This document shows, in pieces, positions 50,208 to 62,944 of a stretch of 64,000 bases of DNA. Below the pieces are notes generated by a model. That model did no database searches. It was not told the DNA's origin and worked only from the letters and a program-made list of their open reading frames with translations. A program made the position numbers and the translations under genes. Origin of the DNA: an uncultured Gammaproteobacteria bacterium (GTDB lineage: Bacteria; Pseudomonadota; Gammaproteobacteria; Steroidobacterales; Steroidobacteraceae); the NCBI GenBank assembly GCA_963745705.1, contig CAVUYL010000011.1, positions 8,535 to 72,534 of the forward strand. The letters are read 5' to 3'. The first letter of the stretch is position 1, and every line of letters starts with the position of its first letter.

Positions 50208-50657
50208 CTAGCCGGCGTCTGGGCAAACTCCAGGCTGGTCGATGGCCGCATCGGCCTGGTTGGATTCGGTGGCGAGAATGTCGCGGCGCTGTTGCTGCAT
50301 TTGGCCGGCTTGCTTGCGCAGCTCGCGGCTTTCCACCCTCAATAGATACTTCGGGGCGCCGTCCGTGCCCTCATCCAACTCCATGGCCTCCCGATCCCGC
50401 GAAGTTGCCCGCAGATTGAGCGAGCGGATTTCACCCCGCATGTCATCGCCCAAGACCGATCCGCCGACGGATCGACCGACGAGGAATCCGGCGGCATCGA
50501 GCTCGCTCTCATCGACGGTGGTTTGCGTATCCATGATCGGCTTGCCGCGCGTCTTGATTGCGGCCAGCGTCGCCAGTCGTGTGGAGCGGACGATTTTGCC
50601 GCTCGATCGATCCAACGCGGTGAAGAAGTAGACGTAGGCATCGGCCATCGGGCTCAT
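50208..50657 (-). CDS. hypothetical soluble protein (about 149 aa) downstream of the STAND operon
   Basis: ORF with a coding-like GC3 pattern. N-terminal YVYFFTALDRSSGKIVRSTRLATLAAIKTRG and an acidic/coiled C-terminus. It starts about 50 nt after the 4-TM gene. Confidence 0.5.
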   Translation of the reverse strand: MSPMADAYVYFFTALDRSSGKIVRSTRLATLAAIKTRGKPIMDTQTTVDESELDAAGFLVGRSVGGSVLGDDMRGEIRSLNLRATSRDREAMELDEGTDGAPKYLLRVESRELRKQAGQMQQQRRDILATESNQADAAIDQPGVCPDAG

Positions 50658-50707
50658 TCTACCCGTTGCAGCCGGGCCGTCCGTACGGTGGCGTACATAA
50701 CGACGCC

Positions 50708-51745
50708 TCAGGCAAGCGGCAGATTGTGCGGCCGGACCAGCAGGTGCCAATCTTGGTGCTCCTCCAAAATCAGCGCGATCGCCGCCTCGATCGCGGCCTT
50801 GAGCGCAGCGACGTCGCCGGCGGAGACGCTCTCATCGAGCGCGGTGCGAATGCGCGTCATCGCGTCCTGCAGATCGGCGACCAGGCGTTCCGAGGTGGTG
50901 CCGAGCCGATAGGATTCGGATTGGGCGAGCGCGCCGTGCAATGATGCGCCGAGCGCCGGGAAAAAAGTCGTTATCACCGACAGAAAAAACGTATGCACGA
51001 TGAGGTGCAGCAGCGCACCGAGTGCCGTCAGGCCGAACAGAGCGCTGTTCATGACATGCACCCGATGGCGCAGCGCGTGGTGCTTGCTCGCGATGCGGTA
51101 GTGATAGTGGCGCTGCTCGTCGAGAATGTCGATGGTCCACTGCGCGTAGCTCGAGACGAACTTGAGGTCCGACCAAGCGTCGAGCAGCAGCCCCCGCGCC
51201 AGCGGCTCGTTCTCTGCGCAGAGCGCAGCCACGTCGTCCGCGCTGCGCACGTGCTGGCCAGGATCGAATACGCGCAGATACCAATTCGTGGCGCTCGCCG
51301 GCGCCGAAAAATCCAGCAAGGGCGCGAGCATGGGCAGATACCAGCTCAATTCCGCGGTGGTGCGTGCGCTCAGCCATTGCGCCTGCCAGTCGCAGCGGTG
51401 ACCGCGCCAGTAAATCGCGCTCACGGTGCCGATCACCATGACTTCGCCGACCGCCCACAATCCCGCGAAGGGATGCAGCATGTGGTTCGAGCTGTCCCAG
51501 CCGAGCGCCAAGGGCATGACGGCGAACAATACGGCAACCGCGCTCAGCAGATAAATCGCCCAGAAGCCGCTGCGGTAACGGTTCCCATAGAGCATGGCGC
51601 GCTCATCGAACCGCCGGTGCGGGCCGGCAATGGCCTCGATGAGCGGCACTAGCGCCGCCGGTGCCTGGGGCACGGGGGCCGGCGGCAGGGTTTGAACATG
51701 AGCGCCGATCAATAACAGCCGCTGAACGAAATTATGCAGCGCCAT
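50708..51745 (-). CDS. 4-TM membrane protein with two SLATT-like (2TM plus helical) modules
   Basis: Module 1: YGNRYRSGFWAIYLLSAVAVLFAV / LWAVGEVMVIGTVSAIYW followed by WLSARTTAELSWY. Module 2: QRHYHYRIASKHHALRHRVHVMNSALFGLTALGALLHLIV / FFLSVITTFFPALGASL followed by a helical tail. The ATG lies 1 nt after the PGDYG stop. The SLATT call is pattern-based only. Confidence 0.7.
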   Translation of the reverse strand: MALHNFVQRLLLIGAHVQTLPPAPVPQAPAALVPLIEAIAGPHRRFDERAMLYGNRYRSGFWAIYLLSAVAVLFAVMPLALGWDSSNHMLHPFAGLWAVGEVMVIGTVSAIYWRGHRCDWQAQWLSARTTAELSWYLPMLAPLLDFSAPASATNWYLRVFDPGQHVRSADDVAALCAENEPLARGLLLDAWSDLKFVSSYAQWTIDILDEQRHYHYRIASKHHALRHRVHVMNSALFGLTALGALLHLIVHTFFLSVITTFFPALGASLHGALAQSESYRLGTTSERLVADLQDAMTRIRTALDESVSAGDVAALKAAIEAAIALILEEHQDWHLLVRPHNLPLA

Positions 51746-52213
51746 GTCAGTCGACGATTTCATAGGTCGTGGCAAAGATGGGCGTGGAAACGATCCCGAG
51801 ACTGCCGTCGCCATAGTCGACCAGCCATTCGCCCGGAACCCCGCTCAAGCGCGATACCCCATCGGCGAGCAACACCTCGAACGGCACCGCCATGGGCACC
51901 GCCATGATGCGATTCGGCAGGCTGATATAGCGCCCCGACTGGCCGGCGACGGTGGGCGGCACGGGGCGGTATTTGTCGGGAAACCGTGCGCGGGACACAC
52001 GCCAGTGCTCCCCCGCGGTGCCGGTGATGATGGCATCGCCGGGCGCCGCATGCACCTCGCCTTCGGAGGTCTTCACGGTGCAGGCGACCGGCGTGAAGCG
52101 CACGTCGATTTCACGTTCCAGCTTGCGCGCAAAGACGCGCCGCGGATCGGCGCTGATCTCGTTCGAGTAGCCGCGATGCCCGCTCGAACGAAACAAAGGC
52201 ACCTGCCCGGCGT

Positions 52214-55437
<3,224 letters not shown>

Positions 55438-55441
<4 letters not shown>

Positions 55442-56823
55442 GACCCGCGAGCCTGCATGAAGTCCTTGAGCCGCCGCGCGAACTCGGGGGGCACTTGTCC
55501 GCCCGGCAATTGCGAAAAATGCAGCGCTTTGAATTTGTCGGGCACCAGCGCATCGGCCGCGTTGGTGGCGTCGATGCTCACCGGCAGAATGAACAATGCG
55601 CCGTCGGCCATGTTGCGCACCCGATCCATGGCATAGCTCCATTCGCGGCGAAAGAAGCCCTCGAGCCGCCGCTGCGTGGCGGCCGAGACCACGGGTATGA
55701 AATACGAGCAGCGCGCAATATTGCGCTGAATCTTTCGGTCGTAGTCATCGCCGACTTCCAATCGGTCGATGTCGAACCAAGTGACGATGCCGGCCGACTC
55801 GAGTCCGGCCTTGATCGCCTGCACCGCTGCCAAATCCTCGCGCGCGTAGCTCAAGAAAACGGCGTTGTCCGGCATTTCGCGCGCCGGCGGCGCAAAGCGC
55901 ACCATGGCGGGCACCGCGGCCGCGGCGGCCGGCTTGCGGCGCGCCTGCCAGCGCCGGTGCAGTTCCTCGACGAAGCGCTCCGCCCCCACGTAGATCCGGG
56001 TGCGGACGCTGACCTGCTGCAGGAAGGCGACGAGGCGATCATCCTGGCTGCTGTGATCGTCCGCCAGCACCTCGCCTACATCGCGTGGGTCCGACAGTCG
56101 TTGACGCTTGGCCATGCGCAGAAACAAGCGCGCCAGCCAATTGGTGAAATTACTGCCGATGAACAGCAGATGATTGTGCTCGAGTTCATGAAACAGCTTC
56201 TCGGGCGCCAAGTGCTCGCTCTGCAGCGCGCAGATGTACTCCAAGAGATCCTCATCCGAGATGACGTAGGTGGGCGAGGCGGAGACCTTGCCGAACAAGT
56301 GGTAGACGACCGGCCGCTGCAGGCGATCCCGCTCGGTGGGCAGATCGGTGACGCGATTGGGTGCGTAGGACAGCACGTCCGTCGAGGGCGCGCCGTTGAA
56401 GCGCTCCAGGTTGATCGCCGTCTCGAGCAAGGGATCGAAGGTGGTGGAGACGAACAGGTCGAAATCGGTGATCGCCGCCAATTGCCGCAGCGCCGCCGGC
56501 GGTTCGAAATTGGCATCTTTGATGATGCCGCGCAGGCGGACGTACGCCTCTTCGCGCCGTCCGCGCGCCGACAGGAACCAGCAAATCACGTCATTGAGCG
56601 TATAGGGCTGCGGCAGCTCGGCAATGTTGACGTTGAGCCGTCCCGCCAGTTTCTCGGCGACCCAGTCGAGCAGCAGGCGCGGACCGCGCTCGGTCGACAC
56701 CAACAGGAGTTCGGGCCCCACGATCGGGATGACGCGGCGTTCCTCGATGTAGCTCAGCAAATCGTCCCATGCATCATCATCGAGCGTGCTCATGGGTACG
56801 GCAGTAGCCGAGGCAGGACTCAT
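55438..56823 (-). CDS. SIR2-like (SIR2_2-type) and TIR domain fusion protein
   Basis: SIR2_2-like motifs IPIVGPELL, STTFDPLLETA, VVYHLFGKV...YVISDEDLLEY and LLFIGSNF (about 55969-56766). C-terminal TIR VFLSYAREDLAAVQAIKAGLESAGIVTWFDIDRLEVGDDYDRKI...YFIPVVS...GFFRREW (about 55549-55872). The longer 794-aa ORF is rejected because its extension is antisense to the acyltransferase gene. Confidence 0.88.
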
Positions 56824-56994: not shown

Positions 56995-57846
56995 ATGATC
57001 AAATTTTTCTCGCGCCTGCCCCTGCGCGCGCTGTATGCATTTGCCACCTTCCTGTATCTGCTCGCGTTCTATGTGGTGCGGCATCGGCACCGGGTGATTC
57101 GCGAACAACTCGAAAAGGTCTTCCCCGACGCGAGCGGCGCGGCGCGCGAGACCATCCACAAGCAGTTTTTGCGCAATTTCTGCGATGTCATGGTCGAGGT
57201 GCTGAAGTCGGTCACCATGAGCGAGGCCGAGATGTGCGCGCGGGTGCGAATCCTGAATTTGGACGTTGCCCGGCGCTATTTGGATGCCGGCCGATCGATC
57301 ATGTTCGTGACCTCGCACCTCGGCAACTGGGAATGGCTGCTGCACGGGGTCGCACTGCAGTTGGGCTATCCCGTCGACGCGGCGTACAAGCCCTTGCACG
57401 ATCAATGGGCGGAGCGGCTCATGCTCAAGGTCCGCTCGAGATTCGGCGCCCGGCTGGTGCCGGCCAAGGAGCTGCTGGCGGATTTTTTGCGGCGGCGTGG
57501 GATCGTGCGCGCCCTGGCCATGAATGCCGACCAGGCGCCGGTCTCGACCGACAAGCGCTATTGGACACGATTCCTGGGCCTGGACACGGCGTTCTACATC
57601 GGGGCGGAGCAAATTGCGCGCGCGACCCGCCTGCCCATCCTGTACGCGGGCGTGCGGCGCGTAGGGCGCGGCTACTATCAGGTCGAGTTCAAAACGCTGT
57701 GGGACGGGCGCGAGGCGGTCGAGCCCAATGCGGTGACCGAGCGCTACGCGCGCGCCTGCGAGATCGATGTGCTCAAATCGCCCGCCGATTGGCTCTGGTC
57801 GTATCGGCGCTGGCGGCTGCAAAAGCCCTTGTACGGCACCGATTGA
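56995..57846 (+). CDS. lysophospholipid / lipid A-type (LpxL/HtrB-like) acyltransferase
   Basis: N-terminal TM, HLGNWE catalytic HX4E/D motif, 283 aa. Confidence 0.85.
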   Translation: MIKFFSRLPLRALYAFATFLYLLAFYVVRHRHRVIREQLEKVFPDASGAARETIHKQFLRNFCDVMVEVLKSVTMSEAEMCARVRILNLDVARRYLDAGRSIMFVTSHLGNWEWLLHGVALQLGYPVDAAYKPLHDQWAERLMLKVRSRFGARLVPAKELLADFLRRRGIVRALAMNADQAPVSTDKRYWTRFLGLDTAFYIGAEQIARATRLPILYAGVRRVGRGYYQVEFKTLWDGREAVEPNAVTERYARACEIDVLKSPADWLWSYRRWRLQKPLYGTD

Positions 57847-57923
57847 CCTTCAGGCTCCGCCGCCCGAATTGCCTGCTAGGATAGGGGCGACGACGGTATC
57901 CAACCAGCCACGAGGGGCGCCGC

Positions 57924-58787
57924 ATGAAACTCGACGACAGCCGTCGCAGCGATAATGTCGAGGACGAGCGCGGTTCGGGCTTCGGGCGCGGCGCCGGTAT
58001 CGGCATCGGCACCATCGTCATCGTGGTCATCGGCTACTTCATGGGTGTAAGCCCATCGACCCTGTTGAGCTTGTTGAACGGCAGCGACCCGCAAGCCGTC
58101 ACCCAGAGCGGCCCCGCGGAATCGGGCACGGCAGCAGCGAACGACCCGCAGGTGGACTTCGTCCGCGCCGTGCTCGGCGAAACCGAGGACGTTTGGGGTG
58201 CCTATTTCAGCAGTCTGGGCAAGACCTACATGCGTCCCAAGCTCGTGCTGTTCAGCGGGCAGGTTTCATCAGCGTGCGGCTTCGCCAGCGCGGCGTCGGG
58301 TCCATTTTATTGTCCCGGCGATCAACGGGTTTACCTGGATCTGTCGTTCTTCCGGCAATTGGCGACGCAGTTCGCCGCACCGGGTGATTTCGCGCGCGCC
58401 TACGTGATTGCGCACGAAGTGGGGCACCATGTGCAAAATCTGCTGGGCATTACCGACACCGCCGCCCAAGCCGAGGAACGCGCCGGCCGCGTCGGCGCAA
58501 ATCGCGTGTCGGTGAAAATCGAGCTGCAGGCCGATTGCTTCGCCGGCGTATGGGCCGCGCGCGCCAACGCGGCGCGCAAAATCCTGGAGCCCGGCGATTT
58601 GGAGCAGGGGCTCACCGCCGCGTCTTCTGTGGGCGATGACACTCTGCAAAAGCGCGAGCAGGGGACGGTCGTGCCGGACAGCTTCACGCACGGCACTTCG
58701 GCGCAGCGCGTCGGCTGGTTCCGCCGCGGCTTCAACGCCGGGAACATCGACAACTGCGATACCTTCAGCGCGGGCGCCTCGCCGTAG
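57924..58787 (+). CDS. ypfJ: YpfJ-family neutral zinc metallopeptidase
   Basis: MKLDDSRRSDNVEDERG N-terminus, Gly-rich TM segment and HEVGHH zinc motif. Confidence 0.9.
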   Translation: MKLDDSRRSDNVEDERGSGFGRGAGIGIGTIVIVVIGYFMGVSPSTLLSLLNGSDPQAVTQSGPAESGTAAANDPQVDFVRAVLGETEDVWGAYFSSLGKTYMRPKLVLFSGQVSSACGFASAASGPFYCPGDQRVYLDLSFFRQLATQFAAPGDFARAYVIAHEVGHHVQNLLGITDTAAQAEERAGRVGANRVSVKIELQADCFAGVWAARANAARKILEPGDLEQGLTAASSVGDDTLQKREQGTVVPDSFTHGTSAQRVGWFRRGFNAGNIDNCDTFSAGASP

Positions 58788-58812
58788 CGCGGCTTCCTAA
58801 AACTTCAGGGTG

Positions 58813-60798
58813 TCATGCCGGCGCCGCCTTGAGCTTGCCCTCCAAGTGCTTCGCGAGCTCGGCGATGGTCGGATGATCGAACAGCTCGGTCAAATCGATG
58901 AGCCTGGGGAATTCGCGATCGACGTTCTCGTGGATCTCTATCAGCTTGAGCGAGCTTGCTCCGATGTCGAATAGGTTGTCGTGCACATCGATGCGCTTGC
59001 CGGGCAGCGCCGCCTCGCAAATCGATTGCAGACGGTTCTCGAGCTCGGTGCCGGAGACGTGCGCCGCGGCTCCCGGCGCCTCGCGCAGTGCTTTGAGCTC
59101 GGCTAATTCCGCGTCGAATTCACCGTCGACATAGGCTTGTTCCAATAAGTGCCGCTGCACCTTGCCGCTGGTGGTCTTCGGTATCCGCTTGGTGGGAATG
59201 ACCTGCGCGACCTCGAGTCCTGTGTGCTCGTTGATGAGGCGGCTGACCGCTGCCGCGGTGGGCAGAAACTCCGGCATGCTGCCGCGATGAAGCACGAACA
59301 CCACGAGCTCCTCGCCCTGAGCGCCGGGCTTGGCGACGCCCGCGGCCACCAGCTTGTTGAGATCCAAACCCGGCGCCCGCTGCGCGATGTTCTCCAAATC
59401 GTAGGGATAGTAGTTCTGGCCGTTGACGAAGATGATCTCCTTGCTGCGGCCCGCGATGTACAGCGAACCCTCGTGCAGGAAACCGAGATCGCCGGTGTCG
59501 ACCCAGCCGTCCGCGCCGACCGCCAATGCGGTGGCCTCCGCATCCGCGAAGTAGCCGCGCGTGACGCTGGCGCCGCGAATCAAGATATGGCCGACATACC
59601 CTTCCGGGAGCGGCTCGCGGGCCAGGGACGCGATGCGCAGTTCGGTGTTCGGCACTGCACGCCCGACACACATGAGTTCCAGCGTGTCGCGCGCGTCCCT
59701 GGGATTGAGCTCGATTTGCGCGCCTTGCCCAAGCATGTGCCGATTCACGCGCACCCATCGATAGTCCGATCCCAGTTCCGGCAAGGTCACTGCCAGCGAC
59801 GCCTCGGCCAAACCATAGACCGGATACATGGCTTGGCGCCTGAGGCCGGTATAGGCCAGCTTGCTCATGAATTCATTGCATAGTTCCACTGAGATGGGTT
59901 CGGCGCCGTTGAAGATCAGGCGAATCGCCGACAGATCGACGCCTTCGAGCCGGCGATCTCCCAACACTTTCAAGAAATGCCGATATCCGAAGTTGGGAGA
60001 GCAGGTGATGGTGACGCGCTTCTTCGCCGCCACCTGCAGCCACAGCAAGGGCCGCCGCACGAACAGCTCGGTCTGCATCAGGTGGATGTGCACGCGATTG
60101 GCGAACTGCATCAGATAAAATCCGATCAATCCCATGTCATGCGTCAGCGGCATCCAGCTCAACGTCACGTCCTCATCGTTGAACTGGTCGACCGCCGTCG
60201 CACCTTGCGTGTTGGCGATCAGATTGCCGTGAGTGAGCATCACGCCCTTGGGCTCGGCAGTGGAGCCGGAGGAGAATTGGATGAAGGCCAGATCCTCCGG
60301 TGCCGGCCGCTGCAGCTTGCCCGGGCGCGAGATATCGGTGATCGACTCGACCAAGAACGCTCGGGATTTGAGCTCATCGAACAGGGCCGACTCGCCCACC
60401 TGAACGGCGAGGGCTTGCAGGCGCTCGAGATTCTTCGAGTCGGTGTAGAGGAGGGGCTTGCCGAGCTTGCGCGCCACCCGCAGCAGCTTGTGTCGATGCT
60501 CGTCGCTGATGCCGACGGCGAGCGGCACGGGGATGATCCCGCCGCACACCGCCGCCCAGAAGCCGTCCAGGAATTGCTCGTTGTTGCTCAGGAAAATGAT
60601 CATCGGGTCGCCGCGCTGCGCGCCCATCGCCTGCAGGTGATACAAGATGCCGAGCGCTCGCGTATAGACATCGCCGTACGTCACGCGCCGCTCGGAGTTC
60701 TCGCCCTCCACATAGGTGACGGCCCGGTCGACGCCGCGATTGCTCTCCAGCACGTCGAACAATGTCTTGAAATTCATAAGTTTACTGGCGTCGTTCAT
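58813..60798 (-). CDS. fatty acyl-AMP ligase (FAAL) fused to a C-terminal acyl carrier domain
   Basis: AMP-binding motifs (FIQFSSGSTAEPKGVMLTHGN, TGDLGF), a FAAL-like N-terminus and a C-terminal carrier domain with FDIGASSL. The ATG overlaps the P450 stop (ATGA). Confidence 0.9.
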   Translation of the reverse strand: MNDASKLMNFKTLFDVLESNRGVDRAVTYVEGENSERRVTYGDVYTRALGILYHLQAMGAQRGDPMIIFLSNNEQFLDGFWAAVCGGIIPVPLAVGISDEHRHKLLRVARKLGKPLLYTDSKNLERLQALAVQVGESALFDELKSRAFLVESITDISRPGKLQRPAPEDLAFIQFSSGSTAEPKGVMLTHGNLIANTQGATAVDQFNDEDVTLSWMPLTHDMGLIGFYLMQFANRVHIHLMQTELFVRRPLLWLQVAAKKRVTITCSPNFGYRHFLKVLGDRRLEGVDLSAIRLIFNGAEPISVELCNEFMSKLAYTGLRRQAMYPVYGLAEASLAVTLPELGSDYRWVRVNRHMLGQGAQIELNPRDARDTLELMCVGRAVPNTELRIASLAREPLPEGYVGHILIRGASVTRGYFADAEATALAVGADGWVDTGDLGFLHEGSLYIAGRSKEIIFVNGQNYYPYDLENIAQRAPGLDLNKLVAAGVAKPGAQGEELVVFVLHRGSMPEFLPTAAAVSRLINEHTGLEVAQVIPTKRIPKTTSGKVQRHLLEQAYVDGEFDAELAELKALREAPGAAAHVSGTELENRLQSICEAALPGKRIDVHDNLFDIGASSLKLIEIHENVDREFPRLIDLTELFDHPTIAELAKHLEGKLKAAPA

Positions 60799-62093
60799 CT
60801 CGTTTCTAAGTTCATCATGAGGTGGGATCGGGGGCGCAGGTTGATCTGCGCCTCGAGTTCAATGGGTTCGTTGCCGGCGCGGGTCAGGCGAAAGCGGCGC
60901 GACATGGCGTGCACATGGACCAACATTTCGAACATGGCGATATTCTCCCCGATGCAATGCCGCGGCCCGACGGCGAAGGGAATGTAGGAGAAGCGATGCC
61001 GTTCCTCGGCGTCGGCGCCGGCGAAGCGTTCGGGCCTGAACTCCTCCGGTTCGTTCCAGAAGGCCGGATGCCGGTGCAGCATATACGGGCTGATGAATAC
61101 GTCGGTGCGCGGCGCAATGGGGTAGCCGCCGAGCTCGTCCGCCTCGAGCGTGCGCCGCGTGAGCAGCCACCCCGGCGGATACAGCCGCAGCGCCTCCTGC
61201 AGCACCTGGTGGGTGAACTGCAGCGACTCGGCGGCATCGAGACCCAGCGTCCGATCGGGGCTGGTGCGATCCGCTTCCTCTTGCAGCCGCTCCGCGGCAT
61301 CGGGGTGAATGCTCACCAGATACCAGGTCCAGGTGAGCGCCGCGGCCGTCGTCTCATGACCCGCCACGATCAGGGTCAATACCTCGTCGATCAGTTCCTT
61401 GTCGCTCATCGGCGTACCGGTTTCTCGGTCGCGGGTGGCCATCAACATGCTCAAGAAATCGAAATGCTCCTCCGACAGGCGCCGCCGGCGTTCGACCAGC
61501 TGCGCGACCAGCTTGGTCAGCGAGCGGAAGCGGAACGCGAATTTCAGGTCGCGGTTCTGCTCCTTGGCGACGACCTCGAATGGATTCGCGCCGAACTCCA
61601 ATTCCAGCCTGGCCAGATCGCTGCCAAAGATCGAGCGCAGCACGATCTCCAGGGTCAATTCACTGGCATCGTCGCCCACGTTGATCGCTTCGGCGCGCGC
61701 CGCCTTTTCCGCCCAGCGCGCCGCGAATTTGTCGTTGACCTCGCGTATCAAGGCACTGAATTGATCGATGACCCGGCGGTGAAACGCGGGCTGCATCATG
61801 CGCCGCTGGCGGCGCCAGAAATCGCCCTCGCTGGTCATGATGCCGTTGCCGAGCAGGATCTTGACGCGATCCATCCCTTCGCCCTTCGTGTAGTTGCGGT
61901 GATTCGACAGCAAGACCCGCTTGATATCGTCGGGGTGGTTGATCACGTAGTTGTAGACGCCGCGCGCGGGCGCGAAGACCCGATAGATGTCGCCGAACTC
62001 CGCGAAATAGCGGATCAGACGCGCCAGCGACTCATCGCTGCCGCCGAGATCGAAGCCGTCGGCGGGGCCGGGGGGCAGTGTCAGGGTCTGCAT
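60795..62093 (-). CDS. cytochrome P450
   Basis: I-helix AGHETTA, EALR (ExxR) and haem loop FAVGPRHCIGENIA. Start at MQTLTLPPGP (62093). Confidence 0.9.
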   Translation of the reverse strand: MQTLTLPPGPADGFDLGGSDESLARLIRYFAEFGDIYRVFAPARGVYNYVINHPDDIKRVLLSNHRNYTKGEGMDRVKILLGNGIMTSEGDFWRRQRRMMQPAFHRRVIDQFSALIREVNDKFAARWAEKAARAEAINVGDDASELTLEIVLRSIFGSDLARLELEFGANPFEVVAKEQNRDLKFAFRFRSLTKLVAQLVERRRRLSEEHFDFLSMLMATRDRETGTPMSDKELIDEVLTLIVAGHETTAAALTWTWYLVSIHPDAAERLQEEADRTSPDRTLGLDAAESLQFTHQVLQEALRLYPPGWLLTRRTLEADELGGYPIAPRTDVFISPYMLHRHPAFWNEPEEFRPERFAGADAEERHRFSYIPFAVGPRHCIGENIAMFEMLVHVHAMSRRFRLTRAGNEPIELEAQINLRPRSHLMMNLETR

Positions 62094-62194
62094 CGTCCTA
62101 TTGTAACGTAGGCATCCCAAGGAGCCCGTCGGTTCCGCGTGGCCGGGCGGGGCGCCGGCAGCGGCTATTGCGGAGCGCGGCGCCCTTCTCGACA

Positions 62195-62944
62195 ATGCCG
62201 GCCGTGAAAGAAAAACGCGGTGGCGGCCTTCGCAATACGATTTACGAACAGCAAACCCGCTCCGGTCGGCGGCTGACCCGCGGCCGCCTGTTGCTGTACC
62301 AGATGCTGGTTCCCGTGGGCTTGTCGCTGCTGCGCCTGGTGTGGGCGTGGTCGCGCGTCATCCATGTGATCGGCGCCGAGCACATGACGGCAGCGCTGGC
62401 GCGCGCACCCTCGTTCATCCCGGTGTACTGGCATCAGCACCAACTATTTTGCGTGAAGCTTCTGTTGGCGCAGCGCCGCGCAGGGCTGAAACTGGGTTTT
62501 CTGATTTCACCCTCGGTCGACGGCGAGATCGGCGCCATGATCGTGCGCAATTTGGGCGCGGAGGTGATTCGCGGCTCATCCAGCCATACCGGGGCGCGGG
62601 CGCTGCGCGATTACTACCAGGCGCTGGCGCACGAAGGCGTGTCGCCCGCCATCACCCCGGACGGTCCGCGCGGTCCGCCTTGGAAGTTCAAGCCCGGCGC
62701 GGTGCTGCTCGCGCAACTGTCGGGGCGTCCCATGATCCCCTTGAGCTACGCCGCCTCGCGTGCCTGGAAGATCAAGTGGGATCGGTTCGTCATCCCTGTG
62801 CCATGGTCGCGGATTACGATCGCCGTAGGCGAGCCGGTGTACGTGCCCAAGGGCCTGGATGCCGCCGGTTTGGAGCGGGTCCAAGCCGATATGGAACGGC
62901 GCTTGCGGGCTCTGTTCGACGTGGCGGAGGCCGCCTTGGGTTAA
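62195..62944 (+). CDS. DUF374-type lysophospholipid acyltransferase family protein
   Basis: WHQHQ, SPSVDGE and PDGPRGP motifs characteristic of DUF374/LPLAT proteins. Confidence 0.8.
   Translation: MPAVKEKRGGGLRNTIYEQQTRSGRRLTRGRLLLYQMLVPVGLSLLRLVWAWSRVIHVIGAEHMTAALARAPSFIPVYWHQHQLFCVKLLLAQRRAGLKLGFLISPSVDGEIGAMIVRNLGAEVIRGSSSHTGARALRDYYQALAHEGVSPAITPDGPRGPPWKFKPGAVLLAQLSGRPMIPLSYAASRAWKIKWDRFVIPVPWSRITIAVGEPVYVPKGLDAAGLERVQADMERRLRALFDVAEAALG

What the first reader, a model, noticed from the sequence alone, without database searches (positions are those of the whole stretch)
55438..56823. Both Thoeris-type NAD-processing domains (SIR2 and TIR) fused in one 461-aa protein, with an atypical SIR2 motif
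In Thoeris the TIR protein (ThsB) makes a signal that activates a separate SIR2-SLOG protein (ThsA). Here a SIR2_2-like domain (aa 20-285 approx.) is fused directly to a TIR domain (aa 318-425 approx.), and I see no SLOG or other ligand-sensor domain. By eye, the motif that reads TTN(Y/F)D in ThsA/DSR-type SIR2 domains reads STTFD here (56434-56448). The Asn position is therefore Thr, while the HG-type His (VVYHLFGK) and the TIR Glu (FFRREW) are retained. One domain could thus be catalytic and the other a degenerate NAD/ADPR-binding regulatory module.
Basis: partly seen in the sequence, partly recalled or inferred. Interest (0 to 1): 0.7.

Follow-up and report, generated by a model that had tools for sequence, protein, structure and literature searches.

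The report
Dead sirtuin–TIR effector of membrane STAND
This gene encodes a protein in which a sirtuin-like domain that has lost its catalytic residues is fused to an intact-looking NAD-cleaving TIR domain. It is always paired with a membrane-spanning STAND ATPase whose outer sensor domain is hypervariable, so it looks like an undescribed variant of bacterial NLR-type immunity rather than a fused Thoeris system.

Summary
Window 55438-56823 (minus strand) encodes a 461-aa protein with a SIR2_2 domain and a TIR_2 domain, and nothing else. STTFD (56434-56448) aligns with ThsA TTNYD, so the catalytic Asn is Thr.

One sub-claim is wrong. The canonical HG histidine is not retained: ThsA H152 aligns with F177, and H175 lies two residues upstream and is only 70% conserved. 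The GAGxS NAD loop is also lost (GPELL). None of 123 diverse family members has the HG His, so the SIR2 domain is a pseudo-enzyme. It is nevertheless the most constrained part of the system (dN/dS 0.01).

The TIR glutamate E394 is invariant and aligns with E77 of SPARTA TIR-APAZ.

The Thoeris framing does not hold. In 80 of 80 related genome loci, and in eight of nine diverged or variant-architecture homologues sampled (down to 31% identity), the gene is followed by an nSTAND1 NTPase gene, usually with a start/stop overlap (ATGA here). That protein has a conserved single transmembrane helix and a repeat sensor (TPR-like here, WD40 elsewhere). The sensor is hypervariable and was swapped by recombination.

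Most likely mechanism: the STAND senses an extracytoplasmic cue and assembles the pseudo-SIR2-TIR protein so that TIR degrades NAD+. I rate it a new variant of a known kind.

The parts
55438..56823 (-). Gene for the 461-aa pseudo-SIR2-TIR protein
   Evidence: ORF and translation. Pfam SIR2_2 plus TIR_2. AF2 model pLDDT 92.1.
55936..56781 (-). Pseudo-sirtuin (SIR2_2-fold) domain, about aa 15-296
   Evidence: Foldseek best matches are ThsA, Avs5, KomC and DSR2. It is the most conserved part of the system: median 84% identity over 60 loci and dN/dS 0.01 against L001.
56704..56718 (-). GPELL (aa 36-40), in place of the GAGxS NAD-phosphate loop
   Evidence: Aligned to KomC GAGFS. The family pattern is G[PQRA][ED]L[LS].
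56434..56448 (-). STTFD (aa 126-130). T128 occupies the catalytic Asn position.
   Evidence: Profile alignment to ThsA TTNYD N112. The family has T95, S10, A6, N5, G4 at this position.
56287..56310 (-). VVYHLFGK (aa 172-179). F177 occupies the catalytic His position. H175 is two residues upstream and non-canonical.
   Evidence: ThsA VVYKMHGD, SeThsA and KomC alignments. None of 123 family members has His at position 177.
55525..55872 (-). TIR domain (aa 318-433) with catalytic Glu E394 (nt 55642-55644)
   Evidence: Pfam TIR_2. E394 is invariant in 123 of 123. It aligns with the Glu of KELAVA, residue 77, of SPARTA TIR-APAZ.
55438..55441 (-). ATGA overlap: stop of the SIR2-TIR gene and start of the nSTAND1 gene
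   Evidence: Read directly from the sequence. Four-base overlaps of this kind are also seen in L081, L083, L095 and L097.
52214..55441 (-). Gene for the 1075-aa nSTAND1 NTPase-TM-repeat protein. Walker A GQSGLGKTS is at nt 55232-55258.
   Evidence: Pfam nSTAND1 E 2.9e-34, 119.8 bits against a cut-off of 27.1. Walker A and the LLIFDQFEE Walker B are visible in the translation. It lies directly downstream of the SIR2-TIR gene in 79 of 80 loci, and 4.7 kb away in L061.
54038..54094 (-). Single predicted transmembrane helix (aa 450-468)
   Evidence: Kyte-Doolittle score 2.42. Present in 68 of 69 orthologues and in three WD40-type relatives. Net charge is +4 before and +1 after the helix.
52217..54016 (-). 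Hypervariable post-TM sensor domain (TPR-like helical repeats), predicted to be extracytoplasmic
   Evidence: Weak TPR hits. Median 47% identity against 83% for the NTPase part. DNA identity to L001 falls from 91-98% to 59-74% exactly over 54030-52230, with almost no indels. dS is 1.46 here against 0.23 elsewhere.
51747..52217 (-). PGDYG-domain gene (156 aa, GTGA overlap with the STAND stop). Accessory; present in about one third of related loci.
   Evidence: Pfam PGDYG E 1.6e-19. Gene calls in L090, L092 and L094. Present in about 27 of 80 loci.
50708..51745 (-). Gene for a 345-aa helical membrane protein with a sub-threshold SLATT-like C-terminal domain. Accessory.
   Evidence: SLATT_1 E 0.0017, below the cut-off. 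21 of 28 homologues hit SLATT_1 and 5 hit DUF4231. Four hydrophobic segments. No structural match.

Best explanation
The locus is a two-gene STAND (NLR-like) conflict or immunity module. Here it is extended by two accessory genes.

The nSTAND1 protein sits in the inner membrane. Its P-loop NTPase module is in the cytoplasm. Its hypervariable repeat domain (TPR-like here, WD40 in relatives) lies on the far side of a single transmembrane helix.

Proposed steps, all inferred:
1. The outer domain recognises a cue, presumably from a phage or another invader or competitor.
2. This drives NTP-dependent oligomerisation of the cytoplasmic NTPase modules.
3. Oligomerisation recruits or clusters the separately encoded pseudo-SIR2-TIR protein.
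4. The TIR domains, which need self-association to form their active site, then cleave NAD+ through E394 and cause growth arrest or death.

The SIR2-fold domain is not an enzyme. It has lost the Asn, the His and the GAGxS loop, yet it is the most constrained part of the system. I infer that it keeps the assembly role of defence sirtuins (ThsA, Avs5, KomC and DSR2 all act as tetramers or helical filaments). It would then be the scaffold or adaptor that couples TIR to the STAND.

Shown here: the domain identities, the loss of the SIR2 catalytic residues, the retention of the TIR Glu, the obligate gene pairing, the conserved TM helix and the hypervariable recombined sensor.

Inferred: the membrane topology, the trigger, NAD+ depletion as the output, and the scaffold role of the pseudo-SIR2.
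For: - Domains and fold.
- Loss of the SIR2 catalytic residues across 123 diverse members: T128 aligns with ThsA N112, F177 with ThsA H152, and GPELL with GAGFS. The same holds in the 32%-identical Paraburkholderia homologue.
- Strong purifying selection on the dead domain: dN/dS 0.01, and median identity 84%, which is higher than for TIR.
- TIR: E394 is invariant, as are S325, W349, D351 and G358 or nearly so. The best PDB relatives are SPARTA TIR-APAZ (E about 5e-13), with E394 on residue 77. The best PADLOC hits are effector-type TIRs.
- Pairing with nSTAND1: 80 of 80 loci. Pairing also holds at 49%, 41%, 37% and 31% identity and in the caspase- and bDLD3-containing variants. One representative is a direct nSTAND1-SIR2-TIR fusion.
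- The Walker A and B motifs are intact.
- The TM helix is conserved with a positive-inside bias.
- The sensor is hypervariable and swapped by recombination, and it is replaced by WD40 in relatives.
- Two thirds of loci have no further gene that could act as an effector, so TIR must be the output there.
- The closest structural relatives of the N-domain are filament-forming sirtuins.
Against: - Nothing was tested biochemically.
- No defence genes flank the locus in this window. The flanks are catalase, a TonB receptor, a fatty-acyl ligase, a P450 and an LpxL-like gene.
- The family is absent from phage records and nearly absent from plasmids.
- PADLOC has no model for the STAND.
- An extracytoplasmic WD40 or TPR sensor on a STAND is unusual and rests only on hydropathy and charge bias.
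- The SIR2-TIR unit also occurs fused to a caspase, to a Death-like domain and to an unannotated 590-aa N-terminal region. So the pseudo-SIR2 need not be a STAND-specific adaptor.
- In this window a SLATT-like membrane protein is co-transcribed. That fits a signalling role for TIR at least as well as NAD+ depletion does.
Confidence: 0.5

Rival explanations
1. Signalling model, Thoeris-like in logic. The STAND-activated TIR makes a cyclic-ADPR-type messenger rather than depleting NAD+. The messenger is read in cis by the dead SIR2 pocket (feed-forward assembly, as SLOG does for ThsA). In four-gene loci like this one it is also read in trans by the PGDYG protein and the SLATT-like membrane protein, which would form the lethal pore.
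For: - PGDYG and the SLATT-like gene are tightly packed behind the STAND (GTGA overlap, then a 1-nt gap) in this window. They recur in about 27 of 80 loci.
- TIR plus SLATT is the published type VII Thoeris, which signals through cADPR (bioRxiv 10.64898/2025.12.03.692087).
- In two cluster representatives (P0121, P0123) a class III nucleotide-cyclase-like C-terminal region replaces the TIR behind an 78-88% identical SIR2 part. A cyclase is a messenger synthase.
- The overall model aligns over both domains with ThsA SIR2-SLOG.
Against: - About two thirds of loci, and all the distant ones sampled, have no candidate receptor.
- The SLATT assignment is below the Pfam threshold and has no structural support.
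- The TIR is closest to NAD-depleting effector TIRs.
- The SIR2 phosphate loop carries an acidic residue.
- The cyclase variant sits on a single 2.7-kb contig without a STAND and could be a chimera.
Confidence: 0.22
2. The system is not immunity. It is a housekeeping transmembrane signalling system that couples an envelope or extracellular cue to local NAD+ turnover or signalling.
For: - The flanking genes are ordinary.
- There is stable synteny with the LpxL-like, Zn-peptidase and FAAL genes in one subclade.
- The family is absent from phages and almost absent from plasmids.
- The effector is very highly conserved.
Against: - The sensor domain is hypervariable, with alleles exchanged by recombination.
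- The genomic position varies outside the closest relatives, and one MAG carries two copies.
- The sensor type is swapped between TPR and WD40. Caspase and Death-like domains are fused in, a caspase gene lies nearby in one locus and an integrase gene lies next to another.
Confidence: 0.13
3. The SIR2 domain is still an active NADase or ADP-ribosyltransferase that uses relocated residues (H175, D130), so the protein has two catalytic NAD-consuming domains.
For: - H175 lies two residues upstream of the canonical position on the same strand, so its side chain should point to the same face (inferred from strand geometry).
- D130, G178 and G223 are invariant or nearly so.
Against: - H175 is His in only 86 of 123 members. 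It is Q, Y, R, A, K, S, L or D in the rest.
- Position 128 is T, S, A or G in 115 of 123.
- The GAGxS loop is lost in all members.
Confidence: 0.05

Closest known systems
ThsA (type I Thoeris effector, SIR2-SLOG; PDB 6LHX, 8BTO)
   Same: It is the best sequence and structure match for the N-terminal domain. Both have a SIR2_2-type fold followed by a C-terminal Rossmann-like nucleotide-handling domain. ThsA acts through higher-order assembly.
   Different: ThsA N112, H152 and the GAGxS loop are replaced here by T128, F177 and GPELL. The C-terminal domain is a catalytic-looking TIR, not a SLOG ligand sensor. The partner gene is an nSTAND1 NTPase, not a ThsB TIR.
Avs/AVAST STAND systems with SIR2 or TIR effector domains (e.g. 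Avs5 SIR2-STAND; PDB 9JAP, 9NC9)
   Same: Both combine a STAND NTPase, a C-terminal repeat sensor and an NAD-targeting effector. Avs5 SIR2 is among the best structural matches. The sensor diversifies rapidly.
   Different: The effector is a separate, overlapping upstream gene rather than an N-terminal fusion. The SIR2 is catalytically dead and carries a TIR. The STAND belongs to the nSTAND1 clade and has a conserved TM helix between the NTPase and the sensor. No PADLOC Avs model matches it.
SPARTA TIR-APAZ (short pAgo-associated TIR NADase; PDB 8FEX, 8IFK)
   Same: It is the closest TIR by profile search (E about 5e-13). The family's invariant Glu sits on the SPARTA catalytic Glu at residue 77 (that E77 is catalytic is from memory of Koopal et al. 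2022).
   Different: There is no APAZ domain and no Argonaute partner. The upstream domain is a pseudo-sirtuin.
nSTAND1-centred conflict systems (Kaur, Burroughs, Iyer and Aravind, eLife 2021, PMC8195603)
   Same: The partner protein is a clear nSTAND1 member. Variants of the effector carry bDLD3 or caspase domains, which that work describes as adaptor and effector parts of such systems.
   Different: The text I could read does not describe a pseudo-SIR2-TIR didomain effector, the conserved TM helix, or the exchange of sensor cassettes by recombination.
Type VII Thoeris (TIR + SLATT effector, cADPR signal; bioRxiv 10.64898/2025.12.03.692087)
   Same: A TIR enzyme and a SLATT-like membrane protein lie in one operon in this window.
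   Different: The SLATT-like domain is below threshold. A STAND gene and a PGDYG gene separate it from the TIR gene. It is missing from about two thirds of related loci.

Membership tests
SIR2_2 (PF13289) / defence sirtuins | Profile match above the curated threshold, and a SIR2 fold | tested here: met
   48.6 bits against a cut-off of 24.5. 70 of 70 family members match. Foldseek finds ThsA, Avs5, KomC and DSR2 with E 1e-12 to 1e-7.
SIR2_2 (PF13289) / defence sirtuins | Catalytic Asn (ThsA N112) and His of the HG motif (ThsA H152), plus the GAGxS NAD loop | tested here: not met
   T128, F177 and GPELL occupy these positions. None of 123 members has the His and only 5 of 123 keep the Asn.
TIR NADases (PF13676 TIR_2) | Profile match above threshold, and a conserved catalytic Glu | tested here: met
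   64 bits against a cut-off of 28. E394 is invariant in 123 of 123. It aligns with residue 77 of SPARTA TIR-APAZ.
TIR NADases (PF13676 TIR_2) | NAD+ cleavage activity | not testable with these tools
   This needs an enzyme assay.
Thoeris (type I) | A separate ThsB TIR gene next to an effector that has a signal-binding domain (SLOG or STALD) and an active SIR2 | tested here: not met
   No SLOG domain is found. PADLOC ThsA hits are only E 0.008-0.06 and only over the SIR2 part. The SIR2 is catalytically dead. The partner gene is nSTAND1.
Thoeris type VII (TIR + SLATT) | A TIR gene adjacent to a bona fide SLATT effector gene as a conserved pair | tested here: inconclusive
   The SLATT_1 hit is below threshold (E 0.0017; 21 of 28 homologues hit). 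It has no structural support. The gene is not adjacent to the TIR gene and is present in about 27 of 80 loci.
nSTAND1 STAND-NTPase conflict systems | An nSTAND1 P-loop NTPase with Walker A and B motifs and a C-terminal repeat sensor, linked to an effector | tested here: met
   nSTAND1 scores 119.8 bits against a cut-off of 27.1. GQSGLGKTS and LLIFDQFEE are present. The C-terminus is TPR-like here and WD40 in relatives. The effector gene is linked in 80 of 80 loci.
Avs / AVAST (as modelled in PADLOC) | A match to Avs STAND models, with the effector fused at the N-terminus of the STAND | tested here: not met
   The STAND protein has no PADLOC hit. The effector is a separate gene, except in one fused representative, P0235.
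SPARTA (short pAgo + TIR-APAZ) | An APAZ domain and an adjacent short Argonaute | tested here: not met
   Only the TIR part matches (aa 320-424 of this protein, residues 3-106 of the chain). The neighbouring genes are nSTAND1, PGDYG and the SLATT-like gene.

The most novel reading that the evidence does not exclude
This would be a bacterial outside-in immune receptor. A STAND ATPase spans the inner membrane and reads an extracytoplasmic cue with a hypervariable, recombination-shuffled repeat domain. It passes that signal to a cytoplasmic TIR enzyme through a catalytically dead sirtuin. The dead sirtuin would have been repurposed as an assembly scaffold or as a sensor of the TIR product. In four-gene loci such as this one, the TIR product would in addition gate a SLATT-like pore through the PGDYG protein. 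In logic this resembles a Toll-like receptor (outer repeats, TM helix, TIR) built on an NLR-type engine.
Probability: 0.2. Interest if true: 0.85.

Novelty: new variant of a known kind. Interest (0 to 1): 0.62.

Why it matters
STAND/NLR-type sensors and the TIR and SIR2 NADases are the main building blocks shared by bacterial, plant and animal innate immunity. This family combines them in three unusual ways.

- A sirtuin fold has been kept under very strong selection after losing every catalytic motif. It is a clean case for asking what defence sirtuins do besides catalysis, such as assembly, adaptor or ligand-sensing roles.
- The STAND appears to cross the membrane. That would mean NLR-like proteins can sense outside the cytoplasm.
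- The sensor is exchanged as a cassette between otherwise near-identical loci.

The family is large and common in soil Pseudomonadota: more than 1200 clusters at 50% identity and at least 542 species genomes. I found no description of it in PADLOC v2 or in the literature I could search. A cultured carrier exists (Paraburkholderia caribensis MBA4), so the questions can be tested directly.

Tried and rejected
- A single-sequence PDB search found only TIR relatives. A family profile was needed to reach ThsA.
- The pairwise phmmer alignments put FFRREW on PdTIR FFKKEW and AbTIR FIKKDW. That would have placed the canonical Glu (four residues after the Trp, from memory of AbTIR E208) on a non-conserved position. 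The family-profile alignment to SPARTA TIR-APAZ and the 123 of 123 invariance of E394 resolved this in favour of E394.
- The search for related loci with the 70-sequence alignment failed for lack of a conserved stretch. It worked with 11 closer sequences.
- Literature searches for 'SIR2-TIR', 'TIR-SIR2', 'PGDYG' and related phrases found no description of this architecture. Burroughs et al. 2015 (NAR) is not held.
- The promoter and terminator scan gave nothing above the shuffled background.
- PGDYG has no PDB relative and only unknown-function PHROG matches.
- The AF2 model of the SLATT-like protein (pLDDT 75) had no Foldseek match below E 0.1, so the SLATT label stays a sub-threshold sequence hint.
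- I considered a diversity-generating retroelement as the cause of sensor variability and rejected it. The divergent tract is 1.8 kb with dS 1.46, which is allele replacement and not adenine-targeted mutagenesis of a short repeat.
- I considered whether the SIR2-cyclase variants show that the pseudo-SIR2 is a constant adaptor with swappable enzymes. The one contig I looked up (P0123) is 2.7 kb with no STAND, so I left this as a lead.
Full report
**What is there**

- Window 55438-56823 on the minus strand is an ORF of 461 codons.
- Pfam finds two domains and nothing else. SIR2_2 covers aa 123-249 (E 1.2e-12, above the curated cut-off). TIR_2 covers aa 322-433 (E 2.3e-17).
- An AlphaFold2 model built on 70 family members is confident (mean pLDDT 92.1, pTM 0.77). 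It shows an N-terminal alpha/beta domain (about aa 15-296), a poorly defined linker (about 297-320) and a C-terminal flavodoxin-like domain.
- Foldseek against the PDB returns only defence-type sirtuins at the top: BcThsA, SeThsA, EcThsA, Avs5 SIR2-STAND, KomC and DSR2, with E from 4e-12 to 1e-7.
- The fusion of a SIR2 fold to a TIR is therefore real, and no SLOG or other known sensor domain is present.

**The SIR2 motifs**

I collected the family with an exhaustive HMMER search of 1.84 billion representatives. It gave 10,367 hits at E<=1e-3 and 1,224 at E<=1e-30. Almost all of the best 150 are 440-500-aa proteins that align end to end at 37-63% identity.

I aligned the query with 122 full-length representatives. 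I also built a profile of the SIR2 part and searched it against PDB sequences. The best match is ThsA (6LHX, E 7e-5).

- **Asn.** The family consensus fvsttfDslLerAl lies on ThsA YWTTNYDRLIEKAL.
- **His.** The same alignment puts VyhLlGkv on ThsA VVYKMHGD. The catalytic His that directly precedes the invariant Gly (H152 by my count) therefore corresponds to F177. H175 lies two residues earlier. SeThsA (VYKLHGD) and KomC (IKFHGT) align in the same way.
- **Family variation.** Position 177 is F56, L53, M13, C1 and never His. Position 175 is H86, Q21, Y5, R4 and others. Position 128 is T95, S10, A6, N5, G4.
- **NAD loop.** The GAGxS NAD-phosphate loop (KomC GAGFS) is GPELL here. Family-wide it is G[PQRA][ED]L[LS], usually with an acidic residue where the second Gly should be.
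- **Deep conservation of the loss.** A 32%-identical homologue in Paraburkholderia caribensis shows the same pattern: TMTCD, VLYMFGK, GSQLM.

The domain is therefore a pseudo-sirtuin across the whole family.

**The TIR**

- E394 is invariant (123 of 123). D351 is also invariant. S325, W349, G358, W395 and A398 are invariant or nearly so.
- A profile of the TIR part finds the TIR-APAZ subunits of short-Argonaute SPARTA systems as the best solved relatives (E about 5e-13).
- That alignment places E394 on the Glu of KELAVA, which is residue 77 by my count. From memory, this is the catalytic E77 of SPARTA (Koopal et al. 2022).
- PADLOC's best hits are also effector-type TIRs (Aga_TIR, SAVED-TIR) rather than ThsB.
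- The retained TIR Glu is confirmed.

**Context: this is not Thoeris**

- The stop codon of the gene overlaps the start of the next gene (ATGA at 55438-55441).
- That gene (52214-55441) encodes a 1075-aa protein with an nSTAND1 NTPase module (E 2.9e-34). It has intact Walker A (GQSGLGKTS) and Walker B (LLIFDQFEE) motifs, one strongly hydrophobic helix (aa 450-468) and a long helical C-terminal region with weak TPR hits.
- A scan of one genome per species found relatives in at least 542 genomes. Most of the best 80 are Steroidobacteraceae MAGs, with some Betaproteobacteria.
- In all 80 of those loci an nSTAND1 gene follows the SIR2-TIR gene.
- The same pairing holds for homologues at 49% identity (three proteins), 41% and 37% and 31% (Paraburkholderia caribensis MBA4). 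Most of these have a 4-nt overlap.
- It also holds for a caspase-SIR2-TIR variant and a SIR2-bDLD3-TIR variant. One representative is a direct nSTAND1-SIR2-TIR fusion.
- In the diverged loci the STAND's C-terminal repeats are WD40 propellers rather than TPR-like repeats.
- The STAND has no PADLOC match.
- nSTAND1 was named by Kaur et al. (eLife 2021) as a STAND clade of conflict systems with TIR, caspase and Death-like partners. I found no description of a SIR2-TIR effector in the literature I could search.

**The STAND looks like a transmembrane receptor with a shuffled sensor**

- The hydrophobic helix is present at the same place in 68 of 69 orthologues and in three WD40-type relatives.
- The 15 residues before it carry a median net charge of +4, against +1 after it. 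The side before the helix is the more positive in 67 of 69.
- This predicts a cytoplasmic NTPase and an extracytoplasmic repeat domain.
- Over 60 loci the median identity to the window is 84% for the pseudo-SIR2, 82% for TIR and 83% for the NTPase. It is only 47% for the post-TM domain.
- Against the closest locus (L001), DNA identity is 91-98% through the SIR2-TIR gene, the NTPase part, the PGDYG gene and the SLATT-like gene. It drops to 59-74% exactly between about 54030 (just after the TM helix) and 52230 (the stop codon), with almost no indels.
- Synonymous divergence there is 1.46, against 0.21-0.26 elsewhere. The sensor is therefore an old, divergent allele brought in by recombination rather than a region of merely relaxed constraint.
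- dN/dS is 0.01 for the pseudo-SIR2, 0.07 for TIR, 0.09 for the NTPase and 0.20 for the sensor.
- The dead sirtuin is thus the most constrained part of the system.

**Accessory genes in this window**

- Behind the STAND lies a PGDYG-domain gene (51747-52217; GTGA overlap with the STAND stop; Pfam E 1.6e-19).
- One base after it lies a 345-aa helical membrane protein (50708-51745). Its C-terminal 125 residues hit SLATT_1 below threshold (E 0.0017). 21 of 28 homologues hit SLATT_1 and 5 hit DUF4231.
- The pair recurs in about 27 of 80 loci. In one subclade it occurs with the same LpxL-like, Zn-peptidase and FAAL flank.
- I could not substantiate the SLATT label by structure.
- Outside the closest relatives, the genes flanking the module differ from those in this window, and one MAG carries two copies.
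- The window's own flanks are ordinary genes. The family is absent from phage records and nearly absent from plasmids.

**Mechanism**

Best-supported reading (confidence about 0.5):
- The membrane STAND senses an extracytoplasmic cue with its variable repeat domain and oligomerises its cytoplasmic NTPase modules.
- This assembles the pseudo-SIR2-TIR protein, and the clustered TIR domains cleave NAD+ through E394.
- The pseudo-SIR2 keeps the assembly or adaptor function of defence sirtuins, whose closest structural relatives all act as tetramers or filaments.
- The domain facts, the pairing, the TM helix and the sensor shuffling are shown. The topology, the trigger, the output and the scaffold role are inferred.

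Rivals:
- A signalling model (about 0.22), in which the TIR product is read by the dead SIR2 pocket, by the PGDYG and SLATT-like pair, or by both. It is encouraged by the published TIR-SLATT type VII Thoeris and by two representatives in which a nucleotide-cyclase-like region replaces the TIR behind a closely related SIR2 part. It is weakened because most loci lack any receptor gene.
- A non-immune envelope-signalling role (about 0.13).
- A still-active SIR2 (about 0.05).

**Verdict**

- The interpretation (one live domain, one degenerate domain) is right in spirit, but the Thoeris frame is wrong.
- The object is the effector of a widespread, apparently undescribed nSTAND1 two-gene system. I rate it a new variant of a known kind, with moderately high interest.

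Noticed in passing
window 52230-54030 (minus strand, 3' 1.8 kb of the nSTAND1 gene): DNA identity to the closest related locus (L001) drops sharply from 91-98% to 59-74%. The drop is bounded by the TM helix and the stop codon and has almost no indels. dS is 1.46 here against about 0.23 in the flanks. This looks like exchange of a sensor cassette by recombination.
   Followed up: yes
window 51747-52217 and 50708-51745 (minus strand): A PGDYG-domain gene (function unknown, with relatives of unknown function in phages) and a helical membrane protein with a sub-threshold SLATT-like domain are packed directly behind the STAND gene. The pair is present in about one third of related loci.
   Followed up: partly
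P0121 (414 aa) and P0123 (473 aa); L087:330-1751: Two cluster representatives are 78-88% identical to this protein over the SIR2 part. In place of the TIR, P0123 hits Pfam Guanylate_cyc (E 2.8e-6) and P0121's C-terminus reads like a class III cyclase by eye but had no Pfam hit. The one contig I looked up (P0123) is 2.7 kb and has no STAND downstream, so it may be a real domain swap or an assembly chimera.
   Followed up: partly
L081:14303-17074; L083:7536-10833; L084:6420-9717: In 49%-identical Betaproteobacteria-type loci the WD40-type nSTAND1 gene is followed by pilin (N_methyl), T2SSF and PilP genes, with overlapping or abutting starts and stops. An ankyrin-repeat gene lies upstream. This suggests a link to a type IV pilus-like apparatus.
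   Followed up: no
P0235 (L088:1796-4816), P0239 (L098:7001-9175), P0203 (L089:1883-3514), P0243, P0200: There are several architectural variants of the SIR2-TIR unit: an nSTAND1-NTPase fusion, a caspase fusion (next to a phage-type integrase gene), a Death-like bDLD3 domain inserted between SIR2 and TIR, an unannotated 590-aa N-terminal extension, and an extra N-terminal TIR.
   Followed up: partly
L081:17105-19386: Close to one SIR2-TIR/nSTAND1 locus lie a MAP3K_TRAF_bd-TPR-S-guanylate-cyclase protein and a 944-aa ThsB_TIR-WD40 protein. Both appear to be further conflict-system-type genes.
   Followed up: no
L061 and L066 (both from MAG CAWKGA01): One genome carries two diverged copies of the SIR2-TIR gene (74-75% identity to the window). 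In L061 the matching nSTAND1 gene lies 4.7 kb downstream rather than adjacent.
   Followed up: no
window 56995-62195: Divergently upstream lie an LpxL-like lipid A acyltransferase gene, a Zn-metallopeptidase gene, a fatty-acyl-AMP ligase gene with a carrier domain (58813-60798) and a cytochrome P450 gene whose stop overlaps the ligase start by 4 nt. This may be a lipid-modification cluster. It is syntenic with the module only in the closest relatives.
   Followed up: no
window 50208-50657 (minus strand): A 149-aa ORF lies about 50 nt downstream of the SLATT-like gene. It has no Pfam or PHROG match, and the alignment with L001 breaks down just before it, at about 50655-50740.
   Followed up: no
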